Source: a virus. From it: a stretch of DNA of 64,000 nucleotides. The position numbers were made by a program, and so were the translations under genes. Of the stretch, positions 1 to 23,947 are shown piece by piece (the first letter of the stretch is position 1; the number at the start of each line of letters is the position of its first letter). The notes beneath the pieces are model-generated. The model searched no databases, was not told the origin of the DNA, and saw only the letters and a program-made list of their open reading frames with translations. Location: positions 12,345-76,344 of the IMG/VR virus record IMGVR_UViG_3300036859_000186; one strand, written 5' to 3'.

Positions 1-813
1 TGCCCGTTTGAATCCTGGAGCGTAATCGTAGCGCACTTCTCCTGAGATAAAAGGAGGTTGAGCAGAGCGTGCGTAACCGTAACAGAAAGGACTTGACTGT
101 TTTCCATATGACTCATAGCCTTTGTAGAGGCCCTGAACAATGACTGCGGCTACGGGCTGGCCGAGCTTCGCTTCGATGGCCTTAATGGAGGAGTGGACCT
201 GCACCGCAGTGTTCCACGAGTTGATCCACTTGTCCTTCTTGGACATAGTGGACTTGTATTCGATGTAGAAGGCATCCCCGTCTCTGCCTAGCACCAAGTC
301 GGGCTTCGACATGAATCTTATACCGTCATGGTCGTAGGTAAGCTCCTGCTCGATGAGCAGAATCTCCGGGTATTCCGCGATGAGGGCGGGCCAGACAGCC
401 TTATGGAACCCTCGAACAAGCCCCTCAACAAGAGTAGACTGTTCCTTCGCAAAAACGATGGTTTCGAACTCGTCGCCAGTATCACCCGATGTGATTTGAT
501 TGGCGATAGAGTCATACATGTGCTTTCGGGCGGCATCAGCGATAGCGTCGATGTCGATCCCACCTTCCTTGTGTTGGAAGGCAATGGCTGCAAGGGCATC
601 ATGAATGGCAGTGCCCATGTAGAGATAGAAGTCGGTGGATTCTGGCACGACACCGCGACCACCAAACTCGTAGTTCCAGTAACGCTTGCGTGGACACGAC
701 CAGTCCGTAGTAGAGCGGGTTCGGTCATACAGGAGAAGTTCGTGAACCGATGGGGTGTTCTGCTGTTGAATTATGGCAGCAGGGACAAAATGCGCGTCGT
801 TTTTCTCGGACAT
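1..813 (-). CDS. PD-(D/E)XK family nuclease (Cas4/RecB-like exonuclease), runs off window edge
   Basis: Not in the ORF track; translated by hand from ATG at 813: MSEKNDAH...DWSCPRKRYWNY...MGTAIHDAL...IEQEL...KPDLVL...YIEYKS...Q. Has the CPR..GT.IH N-terminal motif and the PD...ExK catalytic motif. Confidence 0.8.
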   Translation of the reverse strand, partial: MSEKNDAHFVPAAIIQQQNTPSVHELLLYDRTRSTTDWSCPRKRYWNYEFGGRGVVPESTDFYLYMGTAIHDALAAIAFQHKEGGIDIDAIADAARKHMYDSIANQITSGDTGDEFETIVFAKEQSTLVEGLVRGFHKAVWPALIAEYPEILLIEQELTYDHDGIRFMSKPDLVLGRDGDAFYIEYKSTMSKKDKWINSWNTAVQVHSSIKAIEAKLGQPVAAVIVQGLYKGYESYGKQSSPFCYGYARSAQPPFISGEVRYDYAPGFKRA

Positions 814-9138: not shown

Positions 9139-10248
9139 TTAACCCTCATCATCCCCAATGAGCGGAGCATTATTCCAAGCAATACGCTCATCGGGCTGGA
9201 GTGCTTGAGGAGGAGCCGCAGGTTGCGGCATACGACCCTCTTCAAGAATCATCCGACGAAGTTGCTCCATTGCCAGGGCATGATCTTCTTGCTGTTGTGC
9301 TTGGATTTCACCTCGTCCGATTCCCGCCCATTCCCGGCGGTTCAGCACTGGTCGTGGATCATCCGGCTCAAGCCGATCTCGCTCAAATGGAGCAGGTTCG
9401 GGGAACGGTTGAGGGGGTGCTGGCATATGGAATACCGCTGCACCACCACGTCCTACTGCACGACCGGCCCGACCAACCTGTGCAGGTCGTGGGACATCAA
9501 AGGGACCATCGAGGTCCAGGCCCAAGCGACGGCCCGCTACGGCTCCACCGAATTGTGCATCAGGTGGTCGCACCGGCTGAGGAAGCGGTTGCCCGTCCTC
9601 GGTGTGCTGACCGCAGTTGACCTTCTTCGAGTGCAGATTCTTGTAGCCTCGACCCAACGTGACTGGCGCTTCACAGAAGTCACATGCCACAGCTTGGGGT
9701 CGAACACAGTGGTGGCAGTAGAGGATGGTCCGCCCATCATCCCGACCCACAGTGACCATTTCACCCTCGTTTAGCTTCCGGGAGCAAACGCCACACTGAG
9801 TTTCGGTGAGATTGGAGGCCGCCAACTTGGCCATCTCGTCGGGTCGCAGGAGAACTTGACGCAACTGACGGATGACCTTCCCAGACAGAGTGTTGGCTGG
9901 AAATGGAAGCTGAAGGACCGCAGCGAGTTTGTCGATGAGGTCTCCATCCTCTCCTTTGTATTCCTGCCCAAGCTGCTCCAGAGCAAGGTTGATCATGGTC
10001 TTCCACGAGGTCCGACCCGGATCTTCGTCCGTGCCGTCGTAGAACTGGAGATGACCCCAGTTGCCGAACTTGAAGACCCCGTCCAACTGTTTGTAAGGGT
10101 CCACATAGTCTCGTGAACTGAACCGCCCGTCCTTGTAACTACGCCAGACGTTGGCGTGGACATCCTCAAAGCGTGCGCCAGCACCGTGCTCCAGGTAGAG
10201 CATGGCGATAACAGCTCGCTTCAGGTAGTCGTTGTAAAGCCTGATCAT
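9139..10248 (-). CDS. Hypothetical protein with Zn-finger (CGVC/CHHC/CDFC) inside the ligase cluster
   Basis: Start MIRLYND after an AGGGAGG RBS; Pro-rich C-terminus. Confidence 0.7.
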   Translation of the reverse strand: MIRLYNDYLKRAVIAMLYLEHGAGARFEDVHANVWRSYKDGRFSSRDYVDPYKQLDGVFKFGNWGHLQFYDGTDEDPGRTSWKTMINLALEQLGQEYKGEDGDLIDKLAAVLQLPFPANTLSGKVIRQLRQVLLRPDEMAKLAASNLTETQCGVCSRKLNEGEMVTVGRDDGRTILYCHHCVRPQAVACDFCEAPVTLGRGYKNLHSKKVNCGQHTEDGQPLPQPVRPPDAQFGGAVAGRRLGLDLDGPFDVPRPAQVGRAGRAVGRGGAAVFHMPAPPQPFPEPAPFERDRLEPDDPRPVLNRREWAGIGRGEIQAQQQEDHALAMEQLRRMILEEGRMPQPAAPPQALQPDERIAWNNAPLIGDDEG

Positions 10249-14632: not shown

Positions 14633-14697
14633 TGTGGACAAGAGATTGCGAGGGACCATTTTTATCGCCAAAGATAACGGTCCCAATTCGGCCCACA
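14633..14697 (-). ncRNA. Y RNA-like element 1 (Ro60-binding-type stem)
   Basis: UGUGGGCCGAAUU GGGACC GUUAUC...GGUCCC...CUUGUCCACA; intergenic, about 500 nt downstream of rsr; flanking pairing extends to 14621..14715. Confidence 0.75.
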
Positions 14698-14768: not shown

Positions 14769-15197
14769 CTAGTAACGTTCTGTCGTCTTGCTGACTTTCC
14801 CTTCCTTCGTCCACTGCGCGATCAGCTTGTTCAGCTGAGTGTAGTCCGGGTTCCACACCACCACGGTTGAGCTGTGGGGAGGATGCACCGGATTCTTGAC
14901 GAACTCAGAGCGAATGACCGCTCCGAGCTTGTGCTCGGTGACGAACGCCATGAAGGCGTCCGCATAGAACTTGTGTTCCCCGAGCCACTTCTTGTAGTTC
15001 GTGCCCCAGTCCGTCACGTCGGCGAGACACAAGATGATGCACGGCGACCGCATACCCTTCTTGAGGGCGGCAGCCAGATACGTCTCAAGACTGTCGGCAT
15101 GGCACAGCCCGCCGATCTCCTGGACGCCACAGTTCTCGACGTAACCCGTTTGTCCCATGGTCAGCGCTCTCCTCGGTGAAAGTGATGGCTCATACAT
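14769..15197 (-). CDS. Hypothetical 'CCG' family protein, translationally coupled to rsr
   Basis: TAATG overlap with the rsr stop; NCGVQEIGGL...F.AFV....LGAV......NP; paralog of 7014..7367. Confidence 0.7.
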   Translation of the reverse strand: MYEPSLSPRRALTMGQTGYVENCGVQEIGGLCHADSLETYLAAALKKGMRSPCIILCLADVTDWGTNYKKWLGEHKFYADAFMAFVTEHKLGAVIRSEFVKNPVHPPHSSTVVVWNPDYTQLNKLIAQWTKEGKVSKTTERY

Positions 15198-16801
15198 TAG
15201 ACTCTCTCCGCGATGAAGTCGCTGACGATCTGGGGAGCGGCAGAATCGAATCCAGCCACGTCCAGCGTGCGACGGTCGTCCGGGTCGGCGATGGTGAAGT
15301 TCGTCGAGGTCATACCCATGACCACTTCGCAAGCGGCCGGGACGCCCATCTTCTGGCGATACTGACGGAGGGCTTGCGACGGATGGATGGCACCGGCGTA
15401 GGTCTCGTTGTCGGTGATGATGACGAAGCCATCGACCTCAACGCGGTTTTCCATGGCCCACAGGACGGGCTGAGCGCAGTCGGTGCGGCCGAAGTTGTTG
15501 CGCTGTGCAGCTCGGCACACCTCATCGAGGCGCATCTTGGGGGTGATGCCGAGGTCCACGAAGCGGTCGCAGAACCCGAACGTGTAGTAGTCCTTCTCGA
15601 CCTTGGCGGTTGCCATCGCCATAGCAGCAGCACCCTCACAGGCACTCAACGGCATGTTGGCAATTGCGGCTGTCCGCATCGAGCCAGACACGTCGATGCC
15701 GAAGACGATCCGTTTGCCGGTCGGCTTCAGAGACTTGAATGCCAGGTAGAACGCATCATCGAGAGCGTCCACAACAGCAGGCACTGGCTTCCACGCACCA
15801 TCACCCCTGACGCCGTGACCAGACGCGTAGGTCTTGAGGGCGATGAGGATCTCGATGGGGTGGACGCGTGCCTTGTTCAGCCATTCCTTGTCACCAAGGA
15901 CAGCGACAACCTTGCGCGAGGCGTCCGAGAGGGGCGCGAGAAGGCCACACTTGGAGAGGTTGCCCAGGTTGCGGATCATCGCAGTTGCAGGCATCTTCTC
16001 CAAAAGAGCAGCCCACACGTCGGGGTCCTTCAGGAATTCGGTGGGGACCATCTCTCGCGTGAGGCCGTGATTCTGGATGAGTCGGCAGAGGTCACGGGCT
16101 GACTCGGCTGACTTGGCAGCCTCAAAGCCTACGATGACCTGGGGAAGCGTGGGTCCGTCTGCCTTGTGTCCCTCGATGCCATCAACGCACCATTTGAAGA
16201 TAGCGTTCCGAGCTTCATCTGAAGTCTTCGGGTGCGCCAATCTGAGGACATCCGCATTGGACCAGCCGTCCCTCGACTGATACTTGACGACGTGTTGGGC
16301 GAGCTTTTCCGTCGGAAGGTCAAGATACCAGTTCGCCAGGGAACTCCGAAGGCCGCGCCCCAACCCACGAAATGTCGTGACGAAGGCCATGAAATGAAAG
16401 AGGTGCGTGGGGATTCGGCAGACCTTCGGGAGAGCAGCCAGTGCCAGCTTTCGAGTGGCAGGATCTGCAGCAGACGCTGCAAGAGCCAAGGCGAAAATCG
16501 CAGGATCGTTCTTCGGTGCTCGTCCTTCATCGGATACCTCCACGATGGTGCGGACCACTCTGGCACCATCCGCTTCGATACACCGGATGGTTCGTGCCGC
16601 ATTCTCCCTCGTCAGTTTCTGAGGAGACGCGTAGTAGCTCCCACCCTCACTGCCGAGGATCAGGAACCGCAGGAACGCTGCGAAGTCGTCAAGGGCATAG
16701 ACGTAGCCCCCGGCGCTGTTCTGAACCTGAGCCTCACCCAGGAGTGGTGAAGTCTGAGGCTGGGCAACACGCGGCCCAATCGAGCTGAACGGTCTCTTCA
16801 T
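15197..16801 (-). CDS. rsr: Ro60 / TROVE-domain RNA-binding protein (Rsr) with vWA domain
   Basis: NSAGGY, RFLILGSEGGSYY, GRAPK, PTHLFHF, KYQSRDGWS..DVLRLAHPK, AMIRNLG, IDVSGSM (MIDAS), TDNET, DVAGFD. Confidence 0.96.
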   Translation of the reverse strand: MKRPFSSIGPRVAQPQTSPLLGEAQVQNSAGGYVYALDDFAAFLRFLILGSEGGSYYASPQKLTRENAARTIRCIEADGARVVRTIVEVSDEGRAPKNDPAIFALALAASAADPATRKLALAALPKVCRIPTHLFHFMAFVTTFRGLGRGLRSSLANWYLDLPTEKLAQHVVKYQSRDGWSNADVLRLAHPKTSDEARNAIFKWCVDGIEGHKADGPTLPQVIVGFEAAKSAESARDLCRLIQNHGLTREMVPTEFLKDPDVWAALLEKMPATAMIRNLGNLSKCGLLAPLSDASRKVVAVLGDKEWLNKARVHPIEILIALKTYASGHGVRGDGAWKPVPAVVDALDDAFYLAFKSLKPTGKRIVFGIDVSGSMRTAAIANMPLSACEGAAAMAMATAKVEKDYYTFGFCDRFVDLGITPKMRLDEVCRAAQRNNFGRTDCAQPVLWAMENRVEVDGFVIITDNETYAGAIHPSQALRQYRQKMGVPAACEVVMGMTSTNFTIADPDDRRTLDVAGFDSAAPQIVSDFIAERV

Positions 16802-17813: not shown

Positions 17814-17881
17814 GCGTCGGATAAATTTCGTAGGCAGCGGTTTTATCTTAGAAGGATAACGCTACCAGAGCGACCCGACAC
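17814..17881 (-). ncRNA. Y RNA-like element 2
   Basis: GUGUCGGGUCG...GGUAGC GUUAUC...GCUGCC...UUUAUCCGACGC; same motif as element 1 with compensatory changes. Confidence 0.72.
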
Positions 17882-17889
17882 GTCAAATT

Positions 17890-17994
17890 TGGTGGAGGCT
17901 TGATAGGCATATGGACAGAGCGGAGCGGTGATGAGGAGACACAATGCTCGTCAATCGTTGCTGCGTAATCTGCCGCCAACCCACAACAGCCCCC
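17890..17994 (-). ncRNA. Rod-like RNA with Ala-type acceptor stem and encoded CCA
   Basis: 5' GGGGGCU / 3' AGCCUCC-A-CCA (G3.U70, A73); interior is a long imperfect hairpin with no D or T loop; sits between two Y-like RNAs with 8-nt spacers. Confidence 0.55.
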
Positions 17995-18002
17995 ATAAAT
18001 AG

Positions 18003-18103
18003 TGGAGCCAAGGACAAGTGTTTGCAGAGGGGTATTCCTGTGCGCTGCCTTTCGGCCCGCTTCTAGGTGCCAGATAACCCTCATGCGTCGGCCCTAGGCT
18101 CCA
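18003..18103 (-). ncRNA. Y RNA-like element 3
   Basis: UGGAGCCUAGGGCCGA...GAGG GUUAUC...(GCC GAAA GGC)...CCCCUC...CUUGUCCUUGGCUCCA. Confidence 0.72.
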
Positions 18104-19611: not shown

Positions 19612-19688
19612 GGGAGGTGACATGGATGAGTGGTTGTCCAGGGAACATTTGGAAGGTAACCCTAGAACGCCGACCCATGTCATCTCCC
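19612..19688 (-). ncRNA. Y RNA-like element 4
   Basis: GGGAGAUGACAUGGGUCGG...CUAGG GUUACC...CCCUGG...CUCAUCCAUGUCACCUCCC followed by U5; intergenic. Confidence 0.68.
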
Positions 19689-19710: not shown

Positions 19711-20529
19711 CTAACGACTTGGCATGAGAATTGGATGACCCTCGTCACCAACCTCCTTGTAAAGCGCTTCTTTCAGCTGATACATAGCTCGTGCCCACAG
19801 CGCTACTGCGTCCGGTGAGGCCGCTTGCAGCACCATTGGGAATTCCCGAGCTGTCTTCTTGAAGTAGTTCTCTGCCCAACGACGGGCATCCTTCGGCTTG
19901 ATTCGACAGCCCTCAGGCTTCGTGAGCATTCGAGTCATGTCGTTCAGGTTGTCGGCCCGGTCTAGAGTCTTAAGTGAGGCCGCGTCCTGATCGTTCGATA
20001 TCTTCGAGTAGTAGACCACCTTCATGGCCGCTTGAAGGTCTTCGGGCGTCTCGTCCTTCCAATCCTTCGTGAGGAGCATGACAAGATCGACCGTTCGGTC
20101 TGGGAACTTTAACGCAATGAGGTCGTGCTGCATGATATAAGTGTCTTCCACCACATCGTGGAGCAATGCTGCTGCCTGTGCTTCCTCATTGAGGCCGATG
20201 TCACGAGCCATCTCGAACACCCGAATGGGATGCACGATGTATGGGTCATCGAAGGCTTTACGCTTCTGTGAGATGTGTGCAGCCGTCGCACACTCCAGCG
20301 CTACATTGATGAGCGTATCGCCTTCAGGTTCAGCCACAGGAATCTCCGTATAGGGTGGTCGCGTCCTAATCAAGTGGTGCTTGCAGACAGGGCAGTCGCC
20401 CCAGCTGTAAGTCTCTGAATGGACGGGGTGAGCGATGGGGATTAGGCACCACTCACACCACAATTCATCTGCCATAGCACTAGTTCCTTCGAGGAACAAA
20501 AGCTTTTCGTCGAGTGAGCGCCAAGGCAT
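19711..20529 (-). CDS. HD-domain small alarmone ((p)ppGpp) hydrolase, RelA/SpoT-HD/Mesh1-like, with N-terminal Zn ribbon
   Basis: AHISQKRK...PYIVHPIRV...AALLHDVVEDT...LTK...KTLDRADNL. Confidence 0.88.
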   Translation of the reverse strand: MPWRSLDEKLLFLEGTSAMADELWCEWCLIPIAHPVHSETYSWGDCPVCKHHLIRTRPPYTEIPVAEPEGDTLINVALECATAAHISQKRKAFDDPYIVHPIRVFEMARDIGLNEEAQAAALLHDVVEDTYIMQHDLIALKFPDRTVDLVMLLTKDWKDETPEDLQAAMKVVYYSKISNDQDAASLKTLDRADNLNDMTRMLTKPEGCRIKPKDARRWAENYFKKTAREFPMVLQAASPDAVALWARAMYQLKEALYKEVGDEGHPILMPSR

Positions 20530-20969
20530 CAGTGCTTGATGTCGTCGCCGCTGATGTCGATGTCCACCGCTGGCAACACCTCAGCCACATCGCTCTCGAC
20601 AACCTCACCATCGATCACTGGCTCGGGCTTCTGTCCAGCCTTCGGATCTTTCGGACGAGGCCGATTGAAGTAGGTCGTCCAGATGACCTCACGGTCTTCC
20701 TTCGAGAACGTCTCGTCACCAGTTGCGGCAAGAGCGAAGGTGATGGCCGATTTACGGCCCTTTTCCTTGTTGAAGACATCCTGACGAGAGCACACCGCAG
20801 TCGCAGAGGTGATGAGGTTCGCCGTGACGAGCTTGCCGTCCTTCTGAACGGTCTCCCAGATGTCACAGATCGTCGTTCGACGCCCCGGTCGCTTTCCGCG
20901 TGGTTTCTCTTGCTGGCGTTCGAATGCCAGAGCAATCGTTCTGTTCTTTGGCAATGTGACGTGTATCAC
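20529..20969 (-). CDS. Conserved phage hypothetical protein
   Basis: AVCSRQDVFNKEKGRKSA motif; AGGAGG RBS. Confidence 0.7.
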   Translation of the reverse strand: MIHVTLPKNRTIALAFERQQEKPRGKRPGRRTTICDIWETVQKDGKLVTANLITSATAVCSRQDVFNKEKGRKSAITFALAATGDETFSKEDREVIWTTYFNRPRPKDPKAGQKPEPVIDGEVVESDVAEVLPAVDIDISGDDIKH

Positions 20970-21017
20970 GGCTGACTCCTCCTGATAGGCGCATTTAACG
21001 CCGCGCCCTTAGCGGCT

Positions 21018-21146
21018 TGGTGGGTCGTGGTGGATTCGAACCTGCCCAGATCCCTCTCCCGTGGACATCTATCGTTACCCCACTACTGTTGCCGAGGAGG
21101 CCCCAGCAGTGACGATAGCCCAGCCGTCCCAGCTGGCTGACGACCC
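21018..21146 (-). ncRNA. tRNA-like RNA with greatly extended anticodon arm
   Basis: Acceptor GGGUCGU/ACGACCC-A-CCA; D-like arm GCC..GG..GGC; T loop GG-UUCGAAU-CC; anticodon arm replaced by a long hairpin (CUAUCGU/ACGAUAG, CACUGCUG/CAGUAGUG). Confidence 0.65.
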
Positions 21147-21150
21147 AAAC

Positions 21151-23666
21151 TTACTCGCCCTTATGACATAGGGTTGAGATGTATCGGCGTTCCTTCTGAT
21201 GGTTGTGGGCTGGCCCTTCGCACCATGGACACCACATCCATGCGTTGACGGAGTTCTGCGACATGGGGCGTAGGACGTGCCAGATGTGACCACAGACAAC
21301 CCACTTTAGGTATTGCAATGGTAGATACCAATGCAGATACAGAGCGAGTCGCTCTTGCCACGTCTTCTGACGCTTCCCAATGCAGCCACACTTAGCACAG
21401 TGGGGCACAGGGGCGTCGTGGCATTCGTCGGTGACGAGTGGGCCGCCACACTCGCAGGTTCCGATTCTATCGGTCACGGTCCTTGTCACCTTTCCAACCC
21501 CGCTTGAGCTGTTCGAGGTTGTATTTTGCCATGATGTCGTTCAATGCTCGGATGGTCATGAAAACTGCCAACTCGTTGGGTTCACCATAGTGGAGCTGGT
21601 CCCACAGCTTCTGAGACTCATCCTTGAGCAGTTCATGGGCGGGATGCTTCAACAGTGGCATTGCTTCTCTCCTTATCCCAACGCCAGACACCGTCCTCGT
21701 AGATCATGACGGTGATGCAGTCGAACTTGCACTTGTGGATGGTGCCGTTGGCCGGGGGCTCGTTCTGTGTGCTCATAAAGTCCCCAAGGGACGAGAGGCA
21801 ACACCTGAAAAGCCCACCTTGAGCAATGCCGTAAGGCACGCGGCTACCCATTACCATTCCTCATCGTTGTCGGGAAAGGCTCGGGTCTCCTTGGCATAGC
21901 GCTTGCACTTGGTGCAGAAAGCAGGCCAACAGTCCCCAGTCATGCCAAGTAACACACGATGGCTCTCACCGTCGTCGCAGGTGCCGCTTTCCAACTCTTC
22001 GCTGGTGGTCAGGAGAGCGGGATCAGGAGGCTTCTCATCGTTGTCACAGGCTCCGGCCTCTATGACTTCGAGGGCCTCACGCATGTCATCGAGGTTCATC
22101 ACCACATCACCTTTTTACAGCGCCTACATTGTGCGAACGCCTCAGAGAGGAGCACCGGCCCATGAAAGAGCGGTGGATACCACACCGGATCGTGTCCCCA
22201 CACATTGCATTGGGTCATGAGGGGCATCAGCTCCCAATAGAGCAAGAGCGCAATGAATGTGAGGACAAAGATACCGAGCAGGTCCATTAGCCCTTCCGTC
22301 GATTCTGGCGGTTGATGGCACGCTTCGACAAGATGCGGCCACGGTTGTGGCGCTTCGATGCCTGACGAGCAGCCCAGCCCACACCAGCCTTCTCAGTGCC
22401 AATGCGGTTCAGTTCCCGCTTGATTCGTTTCTCTCTTTTCCGCATGTCAGCCCCGGTCTCGCTGGTGAAGGTCGTCGGTGTATTCGACATCGTCGATCTT
22501 GAAGTTCTCCAGCACCTTCGTGAGGGCGATCTTGGCATCGACCAGTTGGGCTTGCGTCTGTTGAGCGGCCTTAATCTGGTCGTCGATCACGATGATTTGA
22601 CGGTCGAGGGCCAACTGAGCATCACGAAGCTTGAGAAGGGCACTGTTGTTCATCGTAAACACGGTAGTCTCCTCCTTGAGAAAAAGGCAGCACTGATCGT
22701 CATTGGGGCACAACCTCACCCCATCCCTACAAATGAGGGTGCAGCGCAGCGTCATGAGAGGTTGAACCTCACCTTGCCGAAGTCCACGACACGGCCGAAG
22801 ATGCGGCGTCTAGCGAGGGAGCCCATGCTCTCTTCCATAGCTTCGGCACAGTCGCGCAGCATGATGTATTCCTCAACGGAGACGGGCACAGATATTTGGA
22901 GGCCACGGCCGCCGTTGGCCATCTTTTGACGAACGCTCTTAACGTGGCGCTTAGTCGAGGGTAGGCCACCCAAACGCCGACGAAAGACTTCTAAGAGCAT
23001 GTCCGGTCTCTGCCTCAGAAAGCCTGTCAAAATCTTCCTCTCCGTCTTCGAGCCTGAGAGCCTGTTGACGATGGTTGAGAGGCTCTGACCCTTCATCAGA
23101 TCCTTCGACCTCAAGAGCCCTGAGCTTTCCAAGCTCGCGTTCGAGTTCGAAGTAGTCGTCGGGGCTGAGTTTGTCTTCTTCGCCATGCCTGAGCACGTCC
23201 TCGATGTCTGTGATACGCTGAGTGTATCGGCTAGGCACGGTCGCGTTCCTTGAGCCGGGGGGCACGAACCTTGTGGATGCGTTCGACAAGGAGCTTGTGG
23301 TTGACCTGGGGCTGAAGCTCCTCGCCGCATCGATCGACGAGGATGGCTAGTCCTTCGGGGCTGACCCTCAACTCCTTGACAATCTCGGTGCCCTTACTGA
23401 CGAGGGTTTCGCCGTTGGGCAGCAGGTTTCTGTAGGTGACGGGTCGCACAATGGCGATCACCTTTCGCATAGGGACGCCGAGCTTTGTCACTTCTTGTGT
23501 TACTTCGCAACGGAACATCACGAACTCCTTGTAGCTTCATCTCATGAAGGTGTTGCTGCTCACTATCATGCAAGAGATATGCACGATTGTGAGGATTTAA
23601 GTCTCCTTGCAGTATGAGGGCTGCAGCGTTCTTGTCTCGCACGACCTTTGGAAAGTGTGACCACAT
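21151..23666 (-). other. Run of small hypothetical ORFs, many with CxxC motifs
   Basis: Overlapping or coupled ORFs at 21151, 21467, 21851, 22099, 22287, 22447, 22752, 22951 and 23231; no recognisable domains. Confidence 0.55.
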
Positions 23667-23865: not shown

Positions 23866-23947
23866 GTTATCGCAAATGCTTTACCGCTAAGCTACCAGCC
23901 CCATTGCTGGGGCCGGGGTGGGTTCGAACCACCGACCTTTTGCGAAC
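23866..23947 (-). ncRNA. Circularly permuted tRNA-like RNA (YrlA-type tRNA-mimic domain)
   Basis: UCGCAAA AGGUC GGUGG UUCGAAC CCACC CCGGCCCCA-GCAA-UGGGGCUGG UA GCUU AGCGGUA AAGC A UUUGCGA. The T arm precedes the D arm and the acceptor stem is closed by a GNRA loop. Confidence 0.85.

What the first reader, a model, noticed from the sequence alone, without database searches (positions are those of the whole stretch)
21018..21146. tRNA-like RNA whose anticodon arm is replaced by a ~60-nt hairpin
It has a perfect 7-bp acceptor with ACCA, a D-like arm and a canonical UUCGAAU T loop, but an imperfect T stem and a multi-helix extension where the anticodon should be. The insert is too small for a group I intron and shows no clear bulge-helix-bulge. 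It exactly fills an intergenic gap and is another anticodon-less tRNA mimic.
Basis: partly seen in the sequence, partly recalled or inferred. Interest (0 to 1): 0.72.

Follow-up and report, generated by a model that had tools for sequence, protein, structure and literature searches.

The report
Anticodon-less tRNA-shaped RNA in Ro60 phage
A soil phage that carries a Ro60 gene and many small structured RNAs also encodes a 129-base RNA with the ends and elbow loop of a tRNA, but a long hairpin sits where the anticodon should be, so it is almost certainly a tRNA-derived non-decoding RNA whose job is not yet known.

Summary
On the minus strand, 21146..21018, lies a 129-nt element with a perfect 7-bp acceptor stem, A73 and an encoded CCA. 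It has an exact GGUUCGAAUCC T-loop box, a D-like hairpin and a very stable 50-nt hairpin (z -4.8) in place of the anticodon arm. It starts 4 nt after one ORF and ends 48 nt before the next.

It is not a normal tRNA. Rfam's tRNA model and default ARAGORN do not call it. The T stem has two mismatches, U8/A14 are absent, and no removal of the insert gives a canonical anticodon loop.

No homologue was found in any collection searched, and the flanking proteins are orphans, so covariation cannot be tested.

Context is the main lead. The element lies 4.2 kb upstream of a phage Ro60 gene, on the same strand, among Y-like RNAs. Next to Ro60 in many other phage contigs I found covarying 120-140-nt RNAs of the same length and layout, with a tRNA body and a loop-closed Ro60-binding helix as the anticodon arm. 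This element lacks that helix motif and scores only 12 bits with their model.

Best reading, at about 0.45: a processed, non-decoding tRNA mimic that is a divergent relative of those RNAs. A decaying relic is the main rival.

The scan noted this same stretch once before (e1-6096684), and never on other DNA.

The parts
21018..21146 (-). Whole 129-nt tRNA-shaped element (RNA position i = 21147 - i)
21140..21146 (-). Acceptor 5' strand GGGUCGU; U at -1
   Evidence: 7/7 pairs in the MFE fold and the ARAGORN model
21120..21137 (-). D-like arm. It folds either as a 3-bp stem GCC/GGC with loop GCUGGGA (ARAGORN) or as the 7-bp hairpin CCAGCUG-GGA-CGGCUGG (MFE). G18/G19 are present; C8 and G14 replace U8 and A14
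   Evidence: z -3.1
21118..21122 (-). UGGGC copy 1. It can pair with GUCCA to give the 'anticodon stem' of the cloverleaf model, and is the same GGGC/GUCC helix with a G.U as in this phage's Y-like RNAs
21069..21118 (-). 50-nt hairpin replacing the anticodon stem-loop (7 bp, GGGUA bulge, 8 bp, GG/AA loop, GCC-UCCUC-GGC)
   Evidence: -25.1 kcal/mol, z -4.76; pair probabilities 0.86-0.99; no other copy in the genome
21062..21066 (-). GUCCA, which can pair with either UGGGC copy
21043..21067 (-). Variable-arm-like hairpin of the MFE fold (UGUCCA-C-GG ... UC-UGGGCA). It includes UGGGC copy 2 (21044-21048) and overlaps the 5' strand of the T stem
   Evidence: pair probability 0.8; on its own it is no more stable than shuffles
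21029..21045 (-). T arm: stem GCAGG/CCACC (G-C, C.C, A.A, G-C, G-C) and loop UUCGAAU
21018..21028 (-). Acceptor 3' strand ACGACCC, discriminator A, encoded CCA
21151..21489 (-). Upstream ORF (112 aa, Cys-rich, orphan); its stop codon lies 4 nt before the element
20529..20969 (-). Downstream ORF (146 aa, orphan); AGGAGG-GTG lies 48 nt after the CCA
15197..16801 (-). Ro60 (TROVE + vWA) gene, 4.2 kb downstream in the direction of transcription, same strand
   Evidence: PF05731 4e-40, PF25045 2e-60

Best explanation
The element is a tRNA-derived, non-decoding small RNA, i.e. a tRNA mimic.

Inferred steps:
- It is transcribed as part of the leftward gene array, because no promoter or terminator flanks it.
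- RNase P releases it at G1, aided by U-1, the 7-bp acceptor, A73 and CCA.
- It is trimmed at the 3' end to the encoded CCA.
- It persists as a stable RNA whose acceptor, T loop and D loop still imitate the upper half of a tRNA.

Shown: the anticodon arm has been replaced by a rigid 50-nt hairpin, so the RNA cannot read a codon.

It has the same layout and length as the tRNA-bodied Y RNAs that sit beside Ro60 genes in many other phages. I read it as a divergent member or offshoot of that design that has lost, or never had, the consensus Ro60-binding helix.

Its likely role (inference) is to present a tRNA-like surface to a tRNA-binding factor, such as a processing or repair enzyme, a nuclease, a toxin or an exoribonuclease partner. 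This would fall within or beside the phage's Ro60/Y-RNA system, with the long arm serving as a handle for a protein.
For: - Non-random tRNA parts at canonical spacing: 7/7 acceptor, A73-CCA and an exact GGUUCGAAUCC. ARAGORN with relaxed settings makes this its only extra call in the genome, with exactly these ends.
- The insert is far more structured than chance (z -4.76) and is not a repeat.
- It fills an intergenic gap on the coding strand of a tightly packed phage arm, with no promoter or terminator match next to it.
- Context: Ro60 is 4.2 kb away on the same strand. Six Y-like RNAs share GGGYCG...GUUAYC...YRUCC. A YrlA-type permuted tRNA lies at 23866-23947.
- In 80 IMG/VR loci around Ro60 homologues, many 120-140-nt RNAs have a tRNA acceptor, D arm and T arm, with the anticodon arm replaced by a loop-closed Ro60-type helix. 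They covary strongly: 96.9% of cells paired, 17 of 20 pairs with double changes, 0 of 500 shuffles as good.
- The element aligns end to end with them at the same length. Its GGGC/GUCC helix with a G.U matches the helix of this phage's own Y-like RNAs.
- YrlA RNAs are established tRNA mimics. One is cut by RNase P and receives CCA (PMC4201824; bioRxiv 10.1101/312249).
Against: - No homologue was found anywhere searched, so there is no covariation and no evidence of selection.
- There are no expression data.
- Rfam's tRNA model gives no hit even at E<=10.
- The model of the tRNA-bodied Y RNAs gives 12.3 bits, against 60-112 bits for members.
- The consensus Ro60 site (CUUG-helix-loop-helix-C-C/U-GA) and GGUUAUC are absent; there are only partial look-alikes.
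- The T stem has two mismatches and U8/A14 are missing.
- The MFE fold (-58.3) beats the cloverleaf (-44.5) and breaks the T arm.
Confidence: 0.45

Rival explanations
1. It is a decaying relic: either a former tRNA or a former tRNA-bodied Y RNA that has lost function and is drifting. On this reading the hairpin is what remains of the old arm.
For: The T stem has two mismatches, and C8/G14 replace U8/A14. The D stem has an A.C mismatch. No tRNA or family model scores it. The Ro60 motif is absent although the layout is kept. It is a singleton.
Against: The acceptor stem is perfect and the CCA and T loop are intact. The insert has 18 pairs with a single G.U (z -4.76). The two 'mutant' T-stem bases are exactly those that create a second pairing partner for GUCCA, which looks more like remodelling than drift. 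A 129-nt dead segment would not be expected to last in a compact phage arm (inference).
Confidence: 0.25
2. It is a cis-acting processing or stability element. A tRNA-like fold would make RNase P cut the polycistronic transcript between the two ORFs and would leave structured ends, with no function in trans.
For: It lies between two co-oriented ORFs with no promoter or terminator of its own. It begins 4 nt after a stop codon. It has good RNase P determinants (U-1, G1, 7 bp, ACCA), seen in the sequence.
Against: A minimal acceptor-T minihelix would be enough for this role. The elaborate 50-nt hairpin and the D-like arm are unexplained. The other structured RNAs of this arm carry Ro60-type motifs and are therefore probably trans-acting.
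Confidence: 0.15
3. It is an intron-containing decoding tRNA. ARAGORN reads it as Leu-UAG. A Tyr-GUA reading is possible if the MFE arms are used. Either way the hairpin would have to be removed.
For: ARAGORN -i -ps calls tRNA-Leu(UAG) with a 44-nt intron. It has A73 and a long variable region, as in class II tRNAs.
Against: Every way of removing the insert leaves UAUAGAU or UAUCGAU, with A33 instead of the universal U33 (my enumeration on the sequence). The insert is too short for group I, has no BHB, and no splicing enzyme was recognised in the arm. The T stem is defective. Rfam's tRNA model, which tolerates the 60-90-nt inserts of the relatives, does not score it. Its nearest tRNA matches are a mix of isotypes.
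Confidence: 0.04
4. It is a copy of a host tRNA 3' part (an attP-type core or a recently captured host tRNA), or a chance resemblance.
For: Phage attachment sites often copy the 3' ends of tRNAs (general knowledge).
Against: The 25-nt and 22-nt 3' parts have no exact match in one genome each of 185,579 species. No integrase was recognised next to it. The genome has direct terminal repeats and a T5-like terminase. The chance expectation is about 5e-6.
Confidence: 0.03

Closest known systems
YrlA-type bacterial and phage Y RNAs (Chen et al. 2014, PMC4201824; Wang et al. 2018, bioRxiv 10.1101/312249)
   Same: Both are tRNA mimics encoded near Ro60 on the same strand. Both have acceptor, D and T elements, no anticodon loop, and a long helix leaving at the anticodon-stem position. 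M. smegmatis YrlA is cut by RNase P and receives CCA.
   Different: YrlA is circularly permuted: its acceptor is closed by a loop and its two ends form the Ro60-binding stem. Here the acceptor is open with an encoded CCA and the long arm is closed. [quoted passage not shown]
tRNA-bodied Y RNAs beside Ro60 in IMG/VR phage contigs
   Same: They have the same topology (acceptor formed by the two ends, sometimes with CCA), the same length (119-138 nt) and the same order of parts. The anticodon arm is replaced by a long arm. They lie in a Ro60 neighbourhood on the same strand.
   Different: They have canonical D and T arms, an invariant GGUUAUC and the CUUG-helix-tetraloop-helix-CCGA Ro60 site. They score 60-112 bits with model R2 and 43-50 bits with Rfam's tRNA model. 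This element scores 12.3 bits with R2 and nothing with Rfam, and it lies 4.2 kb from Ro60 rather than within 0.5 kb.
T4 RNAC and RNAD (small stable RNAs from the T4 tRNA region, roles unknown; PMC3014915)
   Same: They are phage-encoded stable small RNAs co-transcribed with tRNA-type genes, with no known function.
   Different: The resemblance rests on the literature statement and my memory only.
tmRNA tRNA-like domain
   Same: It has an open acceptor with CCA and a T arm, and a large insertion between the 5' and 3' parts of the tRNA-like domain.
   Different: There is no G3.U70, no tag reading frame and no pseudoknots. The element is 129 nt, not about 350. ARAGORN's tmRNA search finds nothing.

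Membership tests
Canonical tRNA (Rfam RF00005 / ARAGORN) | Reaches the covariance-model gathering score (29 bits) or the default ARAGORN threshold | tested here: not met
   No RF00005 hit at the gathering score or at E<=10. ARAGORN default makes no call.
Canonical tRNA (Rfam RF00005 / ARAGORN) | 7-bp acceptor stem, discriminator base, 3' CCA | tested here: met
   GGGUCGU/ACGACCC pair 7/7, followed by A73 and an encoded CCA.
Canonical tRNA (Rfam RF00005 / ARAGORN) | 5-bp anticodon stem with a 7-nt loop carrying U33 | tested here: not met
   The loop is replaced by a 44-50-nt hairpin. Every possible excision leaves A33 (and my enumeration).
Canonical tRNA (Rfam RF00005 / ARAGORN) | 5-bp T stem with a UUCRANY loop; D arm with U8, A14, G18G19 | tested here: not met
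   The loop UUCGAAU and the GG are present. The T stem has only 3 of 5 pairs, C8/G14 replace U8/A14, and the D stem has 3 bp plus an A.C mismatch.
tRNA with group I intron | An intron of about 200 nt or more with the P1-P9 core | tested here: not met
   The insert is 44-50 nt and forms a simple hairpin. There is no Rfam intron hit.
tRNA with archaeal-type intron | Bulge-helix-bulge: 3-nt bulges on opposite strands, 4 bp apart | tested here: not met
   Both bulges (GAU, GGGUA) lie on the 3' strand.
Y RNA / YrlA | Ro60-binding bulged helix (here GGGY-C-GA paired to CUUG-RYCC, or its loop-closed form) | tested here: not met
   Only the 4-5-bp core UGGGC/GUCCA with a G.U is shared. The bulged C, the GA/UU pairs and CUUG are absent in either orientation.
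Y RNA / YrlA | Encoded within about 4 kb of Ro60 on the same strand (criterion of PMC4201824) | tested here: inconclusive
   Same strand, but 4.2 kb upstream of the Ro60 start.
Y RNA / YrlA | Binds Ro60 | not testable with these tools
   This needs EMSA or co-immunoprecipitation.
   12.3 bits with filters off, against 60-112 bits for members. It was not reported in the filtered search at E<=1.
   It aligns end to end at 129 nt.
   GGGUAAC sits at the equivalent place (5 of 7 to GGUUACC), and GAUGUCC was aligned there by MAFFT. Both are compatible with chance.
tmRNA | G3.U70, tag ORF, pseudoknots, about 300-400 nt | tested here: not met
   It has G3-C70 and is 129 nt. ARAGORN -m finds nothing.

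The most novel reading that the evidence does not exclude
The phage may have taken the tRNA apart on purpose. Anticodon stem-loops are displayed on minimal Ro60-bound Y RNAs, as other notes of this scan report. Separately, CCA-ended, anticodon-less tRNA bodies such as this one imitate the acceptor/elbow half. This RNA would then be a chargeable or toxin-titrating decoy. Alternatively it could be a two-state switch, using the duplicated CUGGGC to flip between a tRNA-like fold and a Ro60-type hairpin. Either way it would protect host or phage tRNAs from tRNA-targeting defences, or recruit repair enzymes.
Probability: 0.12. Interest if true: 0.85.

Novelty: new variant of a known kind. Interest (0 to 1): 0.5.

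Why it matters
Ro60 and its Y RNAs are conserved from bacteria to humans, yet what the tRNA-like modules of bacterial and phage Y RNAs are for is still open. One phage Ro60-like protein has been reported to counter a defence system, with the suggestion that nearby 'tRNA genes' are really Y RNAs (PMC11482910).

This phage arm, and the tRNA-bodied Y RNAs found beside Ro60 in other phages during this work, show that phages build many versions of 'tRNA without an anticodon'. This element is the most stripped-down version: tRNA ends and elbow loop, a long arm, and no recognisable Ro60 site. If it is expressed, it would show which part of the tRNA shape these systems actually need. If it is a relic, it records how such RNAs decay.

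Tried and rejected
- **Homologue searches, all empty.**
  - blastn of the region against 50,697 phage records.
  - Exact 25-mer in IMG/VR.
  - 25-mer and 22-mer in 185,579 species genomes.
  - tblastn and pattern scans with both flanking ORFs.
  - A search of 5.8 billion proteins with the downstream ORF, which found only itself.
  - The HD protein finds only bacterial small alarmone hydrolases at 50% identity or less.
  - The single-sequence model R1 over 80 Ro60 loci and five whole records finds only ordinary tRNAs of mixed isotype.
  - The scan's own index holds nothing on other DNA.
- **Closest Ro60 relatives not inspected.** The contigs of the closest Ro60 relatives (59-63% identity, P0123, P0124, P0138 and others) therefore could not be examined.
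- **Sequencing runs.** No RNA holder is listed. Only the probable source soil run holds the stretch. A second soil run covers 21552-21955 only, not the element.
- **Hairpin as a mobile repeat.** There is no second copy in the genome.
- **Parent isotype.** It cannot be assigned.
- **Model of this phage's six Y-like RNAs.** MAFFT misaligned their 3' halves. Hand-made alignments cannot be entered, so the Y-motif comparison was made by eye.
- **Pairing between a Y-like apical loop (CCUUCU) and AGAGGG in the element.** The chance expectation is about 0.07, so I dropped it.
- **Rod-shaped RNA at 17890-17994.** A UGGGU/GUCCA helix there is not what its MFE fold uses, so I did not pursue it.

Full report
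**What is there**

The window is part of a 76,344-bp IMG/VR virus record with direct terminal repeats. It comes from a soil metagenome. Its terminase is only about 24% identical to T5-like phages.

Genes in this arm run on the minus strand. Read on that strand, 21146..21018 is a 129-nt element with these parts:
- GGGUCGU pairs perfectly with ACGACCC and is followed by A-CCA.
- The box GGUUCGAAUCC, with T loop UUCGAAU, is exact. It is the only exact copy in the window.
- The T stem GCAGG/CCACC has C.C and A.A in the middle.
- Positions 10-27 form a D-like arm with GG in its loop, but C8 and G14 stand where U8 and A14 should be.
- Positions 29-78 form a 50-nt hairpin of 18 pairs (-25.1 kcal/mol, z -4.76).

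The upstream ORF stops 4 nt before G1. The next ORF starts 48 nt after the CCA, behind AGGAGG. No promoter-like or terminator-like site flanks the element.

By simple arithmetic, the combination of an exact T box, a 7/7 acceptor at tRNA spacing and CCA is expected about 5e-6 times in this genome. The element is therefore derived from a tRNA and is not a chance resemblance.

**What it is not**

Default ARAGORN and Rfam's tRNA model do not report it, even at E<=10.

ARAGORN with introns allowed and a 95% threshold calls it tRNA-Leu(UAG) with a 44-nt intron. This is its only extra call in the genome, with exactly these ends. That setting also gives 2.3 calls per shuffled genome, 0.2 of them with short introns, so the call adds little.

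Whatever part of the insert is removed, the remaining loop is UAUAGAU or UAUCGAU, with A33. The insert is too short for group I and has no bulge-helix-bulge. No splicing or ligase gene was recognised nearby.

The 3' part matches no tRNA gene in 185,579 species genomes. This argues against an attachment-site copy or a recent capture.

The hairpin is not a repeat.

**Fold**

The minimum-energy fold (-58.3 kcal/mol, z -2.6) keeps the acceptor, the D-like hairpin and the long hairpin. It pairs GUCCA (81-85) with the downstream UGGGC (99-103), which uses up the 5' strand of the T stem.

The cloverleaf fold pairs GUCCA with the upstream UGGGC (25-29) and costs 14 kcal/mol more, tertiary contacts not counted.

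The two bases that spoil the T stem (C103, A104) are the ones that create the downstream partner. A single sequence cannot decide between the two folds.

**No relatives**

Both flanking ORFs are orphans in every collection searched. DNA and pattern searches found nothing. A single-sequence covariance model found only ordinary tRNAs of mixed isotype in 80 related loci and five whole phage records.

The contigs of the nearest Ro60 relatives (59-63% identity) could not be read.

**Context, the main lead**

A Ro60 gene (TROVE + vWA) lies at 15197-16801 on the same strand.

Earlier notes of this scan pointed to Y-like RNAs around it. I read six of them. They do share outer stem-GGGYCG...GUUAYC...YRUCC-outer stem, which is the pattern of the Ro60-binding bulged helix.

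A YrlA-type circularly permuted tRNA lies at 23866-23947.

**A related design in other phages**

Using an alignment of Ro60 homologues I fetched 80 IMG/VR loci. Beside Ro60 in many of them, on the same strand, lie 120-140-nt RNAs with these features:
- an acceptor stem formed by the two ends, some with CCA;
- a canonical D arm and T arm;
- in place of the anticodon arm, CUUG-helix-tetraloop (GCAA, CUUG)-helix-C-C/U-GA followed by GGUUAUC.

Rfam's tRNA model calls several of them tRNAs with 60-90-nt insertions.

In 15 of them, all four helices covary: 96.9% of cells are paired, 17 of 20 pairs show changes on both sides, 0 of 500 shuffles do as well, and slid controls give 38-47%.

A model built from them finds more such RNAs in many loci, including tandem and interleaved arrays.

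Published YrlA RNAs are described as circularly permuted tRNAs with a closed acceptor (PMC4201824; bioRxiv 10.1101/312249). The RNAs found here are the unpermuted counterpart. I found no description of them in the papers I could search. One preprint does suggest that 'tRNA genes' next to a phage Ro60-like gene may be Y RNAs (PMC11482910).

**How the element compares with that design**

It has the same topology, the same order of parts and the same length, and it aligns end to end. It differs as follows:
- It scores only 12.3 bits with the family model, against 60-112 bits for members.
- At the apex of its arm sits a 3-bp stub (GCC-UCCUC-GGC) where the Ro60 helix would be.
- GGGUAAC stands where GGUUAYC is expected, a 5-of-7 match that is compatible with chance.
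- Its only real similarity to a Ro60 site is the UGGGC/GUCCA helix with a G.U at the same place as in this phage's Y-like RNAs. That helix can form in the canonical order or in the loop-closed order, but in neither case with the bulged C and flanking GA/UU pairs.

Membership in the Y RNA families was therefore tested and not met. The resemblance in design and the genomic context remain.

**Verdict**

The most likely reading (0.45) is a processed, non-decoding tRNA mimic: a divergent offshoot of the tRNA-bodied RNAs that accompany phage Ro60. It would be released by the host's tRNA-processing enzymes and would offer a tRNA-like upper half plus a long arm to some protein partner. Processing, stability and partner are all inferred.

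The rivals are:
- a decaying relic (0.25), supported by the degenerate D and T arms and the model scores, and opposed by the perfect acceptor, the intact CCA and the highly ordered insert;
- a purely cis-acting RNase P punctuation element (0.15);
- a spliced decoding tRNA (0.04);
- a host tRNA copy or a chance resemblance (0.03).

T4's RNAC and RNAD are a loose precedent for phage small RNAs of unknown role in tRNA regions (PMC3014915).

Noticed in passing
L020:9542-9670, L023:3507-3632, L028:9541-9664 and 9733-9854, L037:9120-9247 and 9268-9396, L003:1663-1791 and 1882-2018, L045:3671-3808, L056:11726-11844, L079:9831-9957 (and many more): A widespread, strongly covarying class of 120-140-nt RNAs lies beside phage Ro60 genes. 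They have ordinary tRNA topology (open acceptor, D arm, T arm, some with CCA), and a tetraloop-closed Ro60-binding helix plus GGUUAUC replaces the anticodon arm. They are the unpermuted counterpart of YrlA. Rfam calls several of them tRNAs with long insertions.
   Followed up: partly
window 14633-14697, 17814-17881, 18003-18103, 19612-19688 (all minus); L081:260-354 and 522-605 (minus): Six Y-like RNAs of this phage share GGGYCG ... GUUAYC ... YRUCC inside a covarying outer stem. Their apical parts are variable and include anticodon-loop-like heads.
   Followed up: partly
window 23866-23947 (minus): This is a circularly permuted tRNA of the YrlA type: variable loop, perfect T arm GGUGG-UUCGAAC-CCACC, 9-bp acceptor closed by GCAA, then a D arm, opening at a UCGCAAA/UUUGCGA stem. 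It has only weak model hits (RF00005 12.2 bits, R2 17.3 bits).
   Followed up: partly
window 17890-17994 (minus): A 105-nt RNA has a GGGGGCU/AGCCUCC acceptor (G3.U70), A73 and CCA but no T loop. It lies between two Y-like RNAs.
   Followed up: no
window 19711-20529 (minus): An HD_4/HD protein lies here. Its nearest relatives are bacterial small alarmone (ppGpp) hydrolase-type proteins at 50% identity or less. The called product is 208 aa, so the true start is probably downstream of the first ATG.
   Followed up: partly
L053:9467-9890, L001:12129-12473, L074:12134-12744: These are tandem arrays in which Y-RNA halves and tRNA arms are interleaved. The same DNA can be read as permuted (YrlA-like) or unpermuted units, so the RNA ends need experimental mapping.
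   Followed up: no
window 20970-21017 (minus): The 48-nt spacer after the CCA can form GC-rich hairpins (GCCGC...GCGGC or GGCGC...GCGCC) just before the AGGAGG of the next ORF. It may be a 3' processing or translation-control structure.
   Followed up: no
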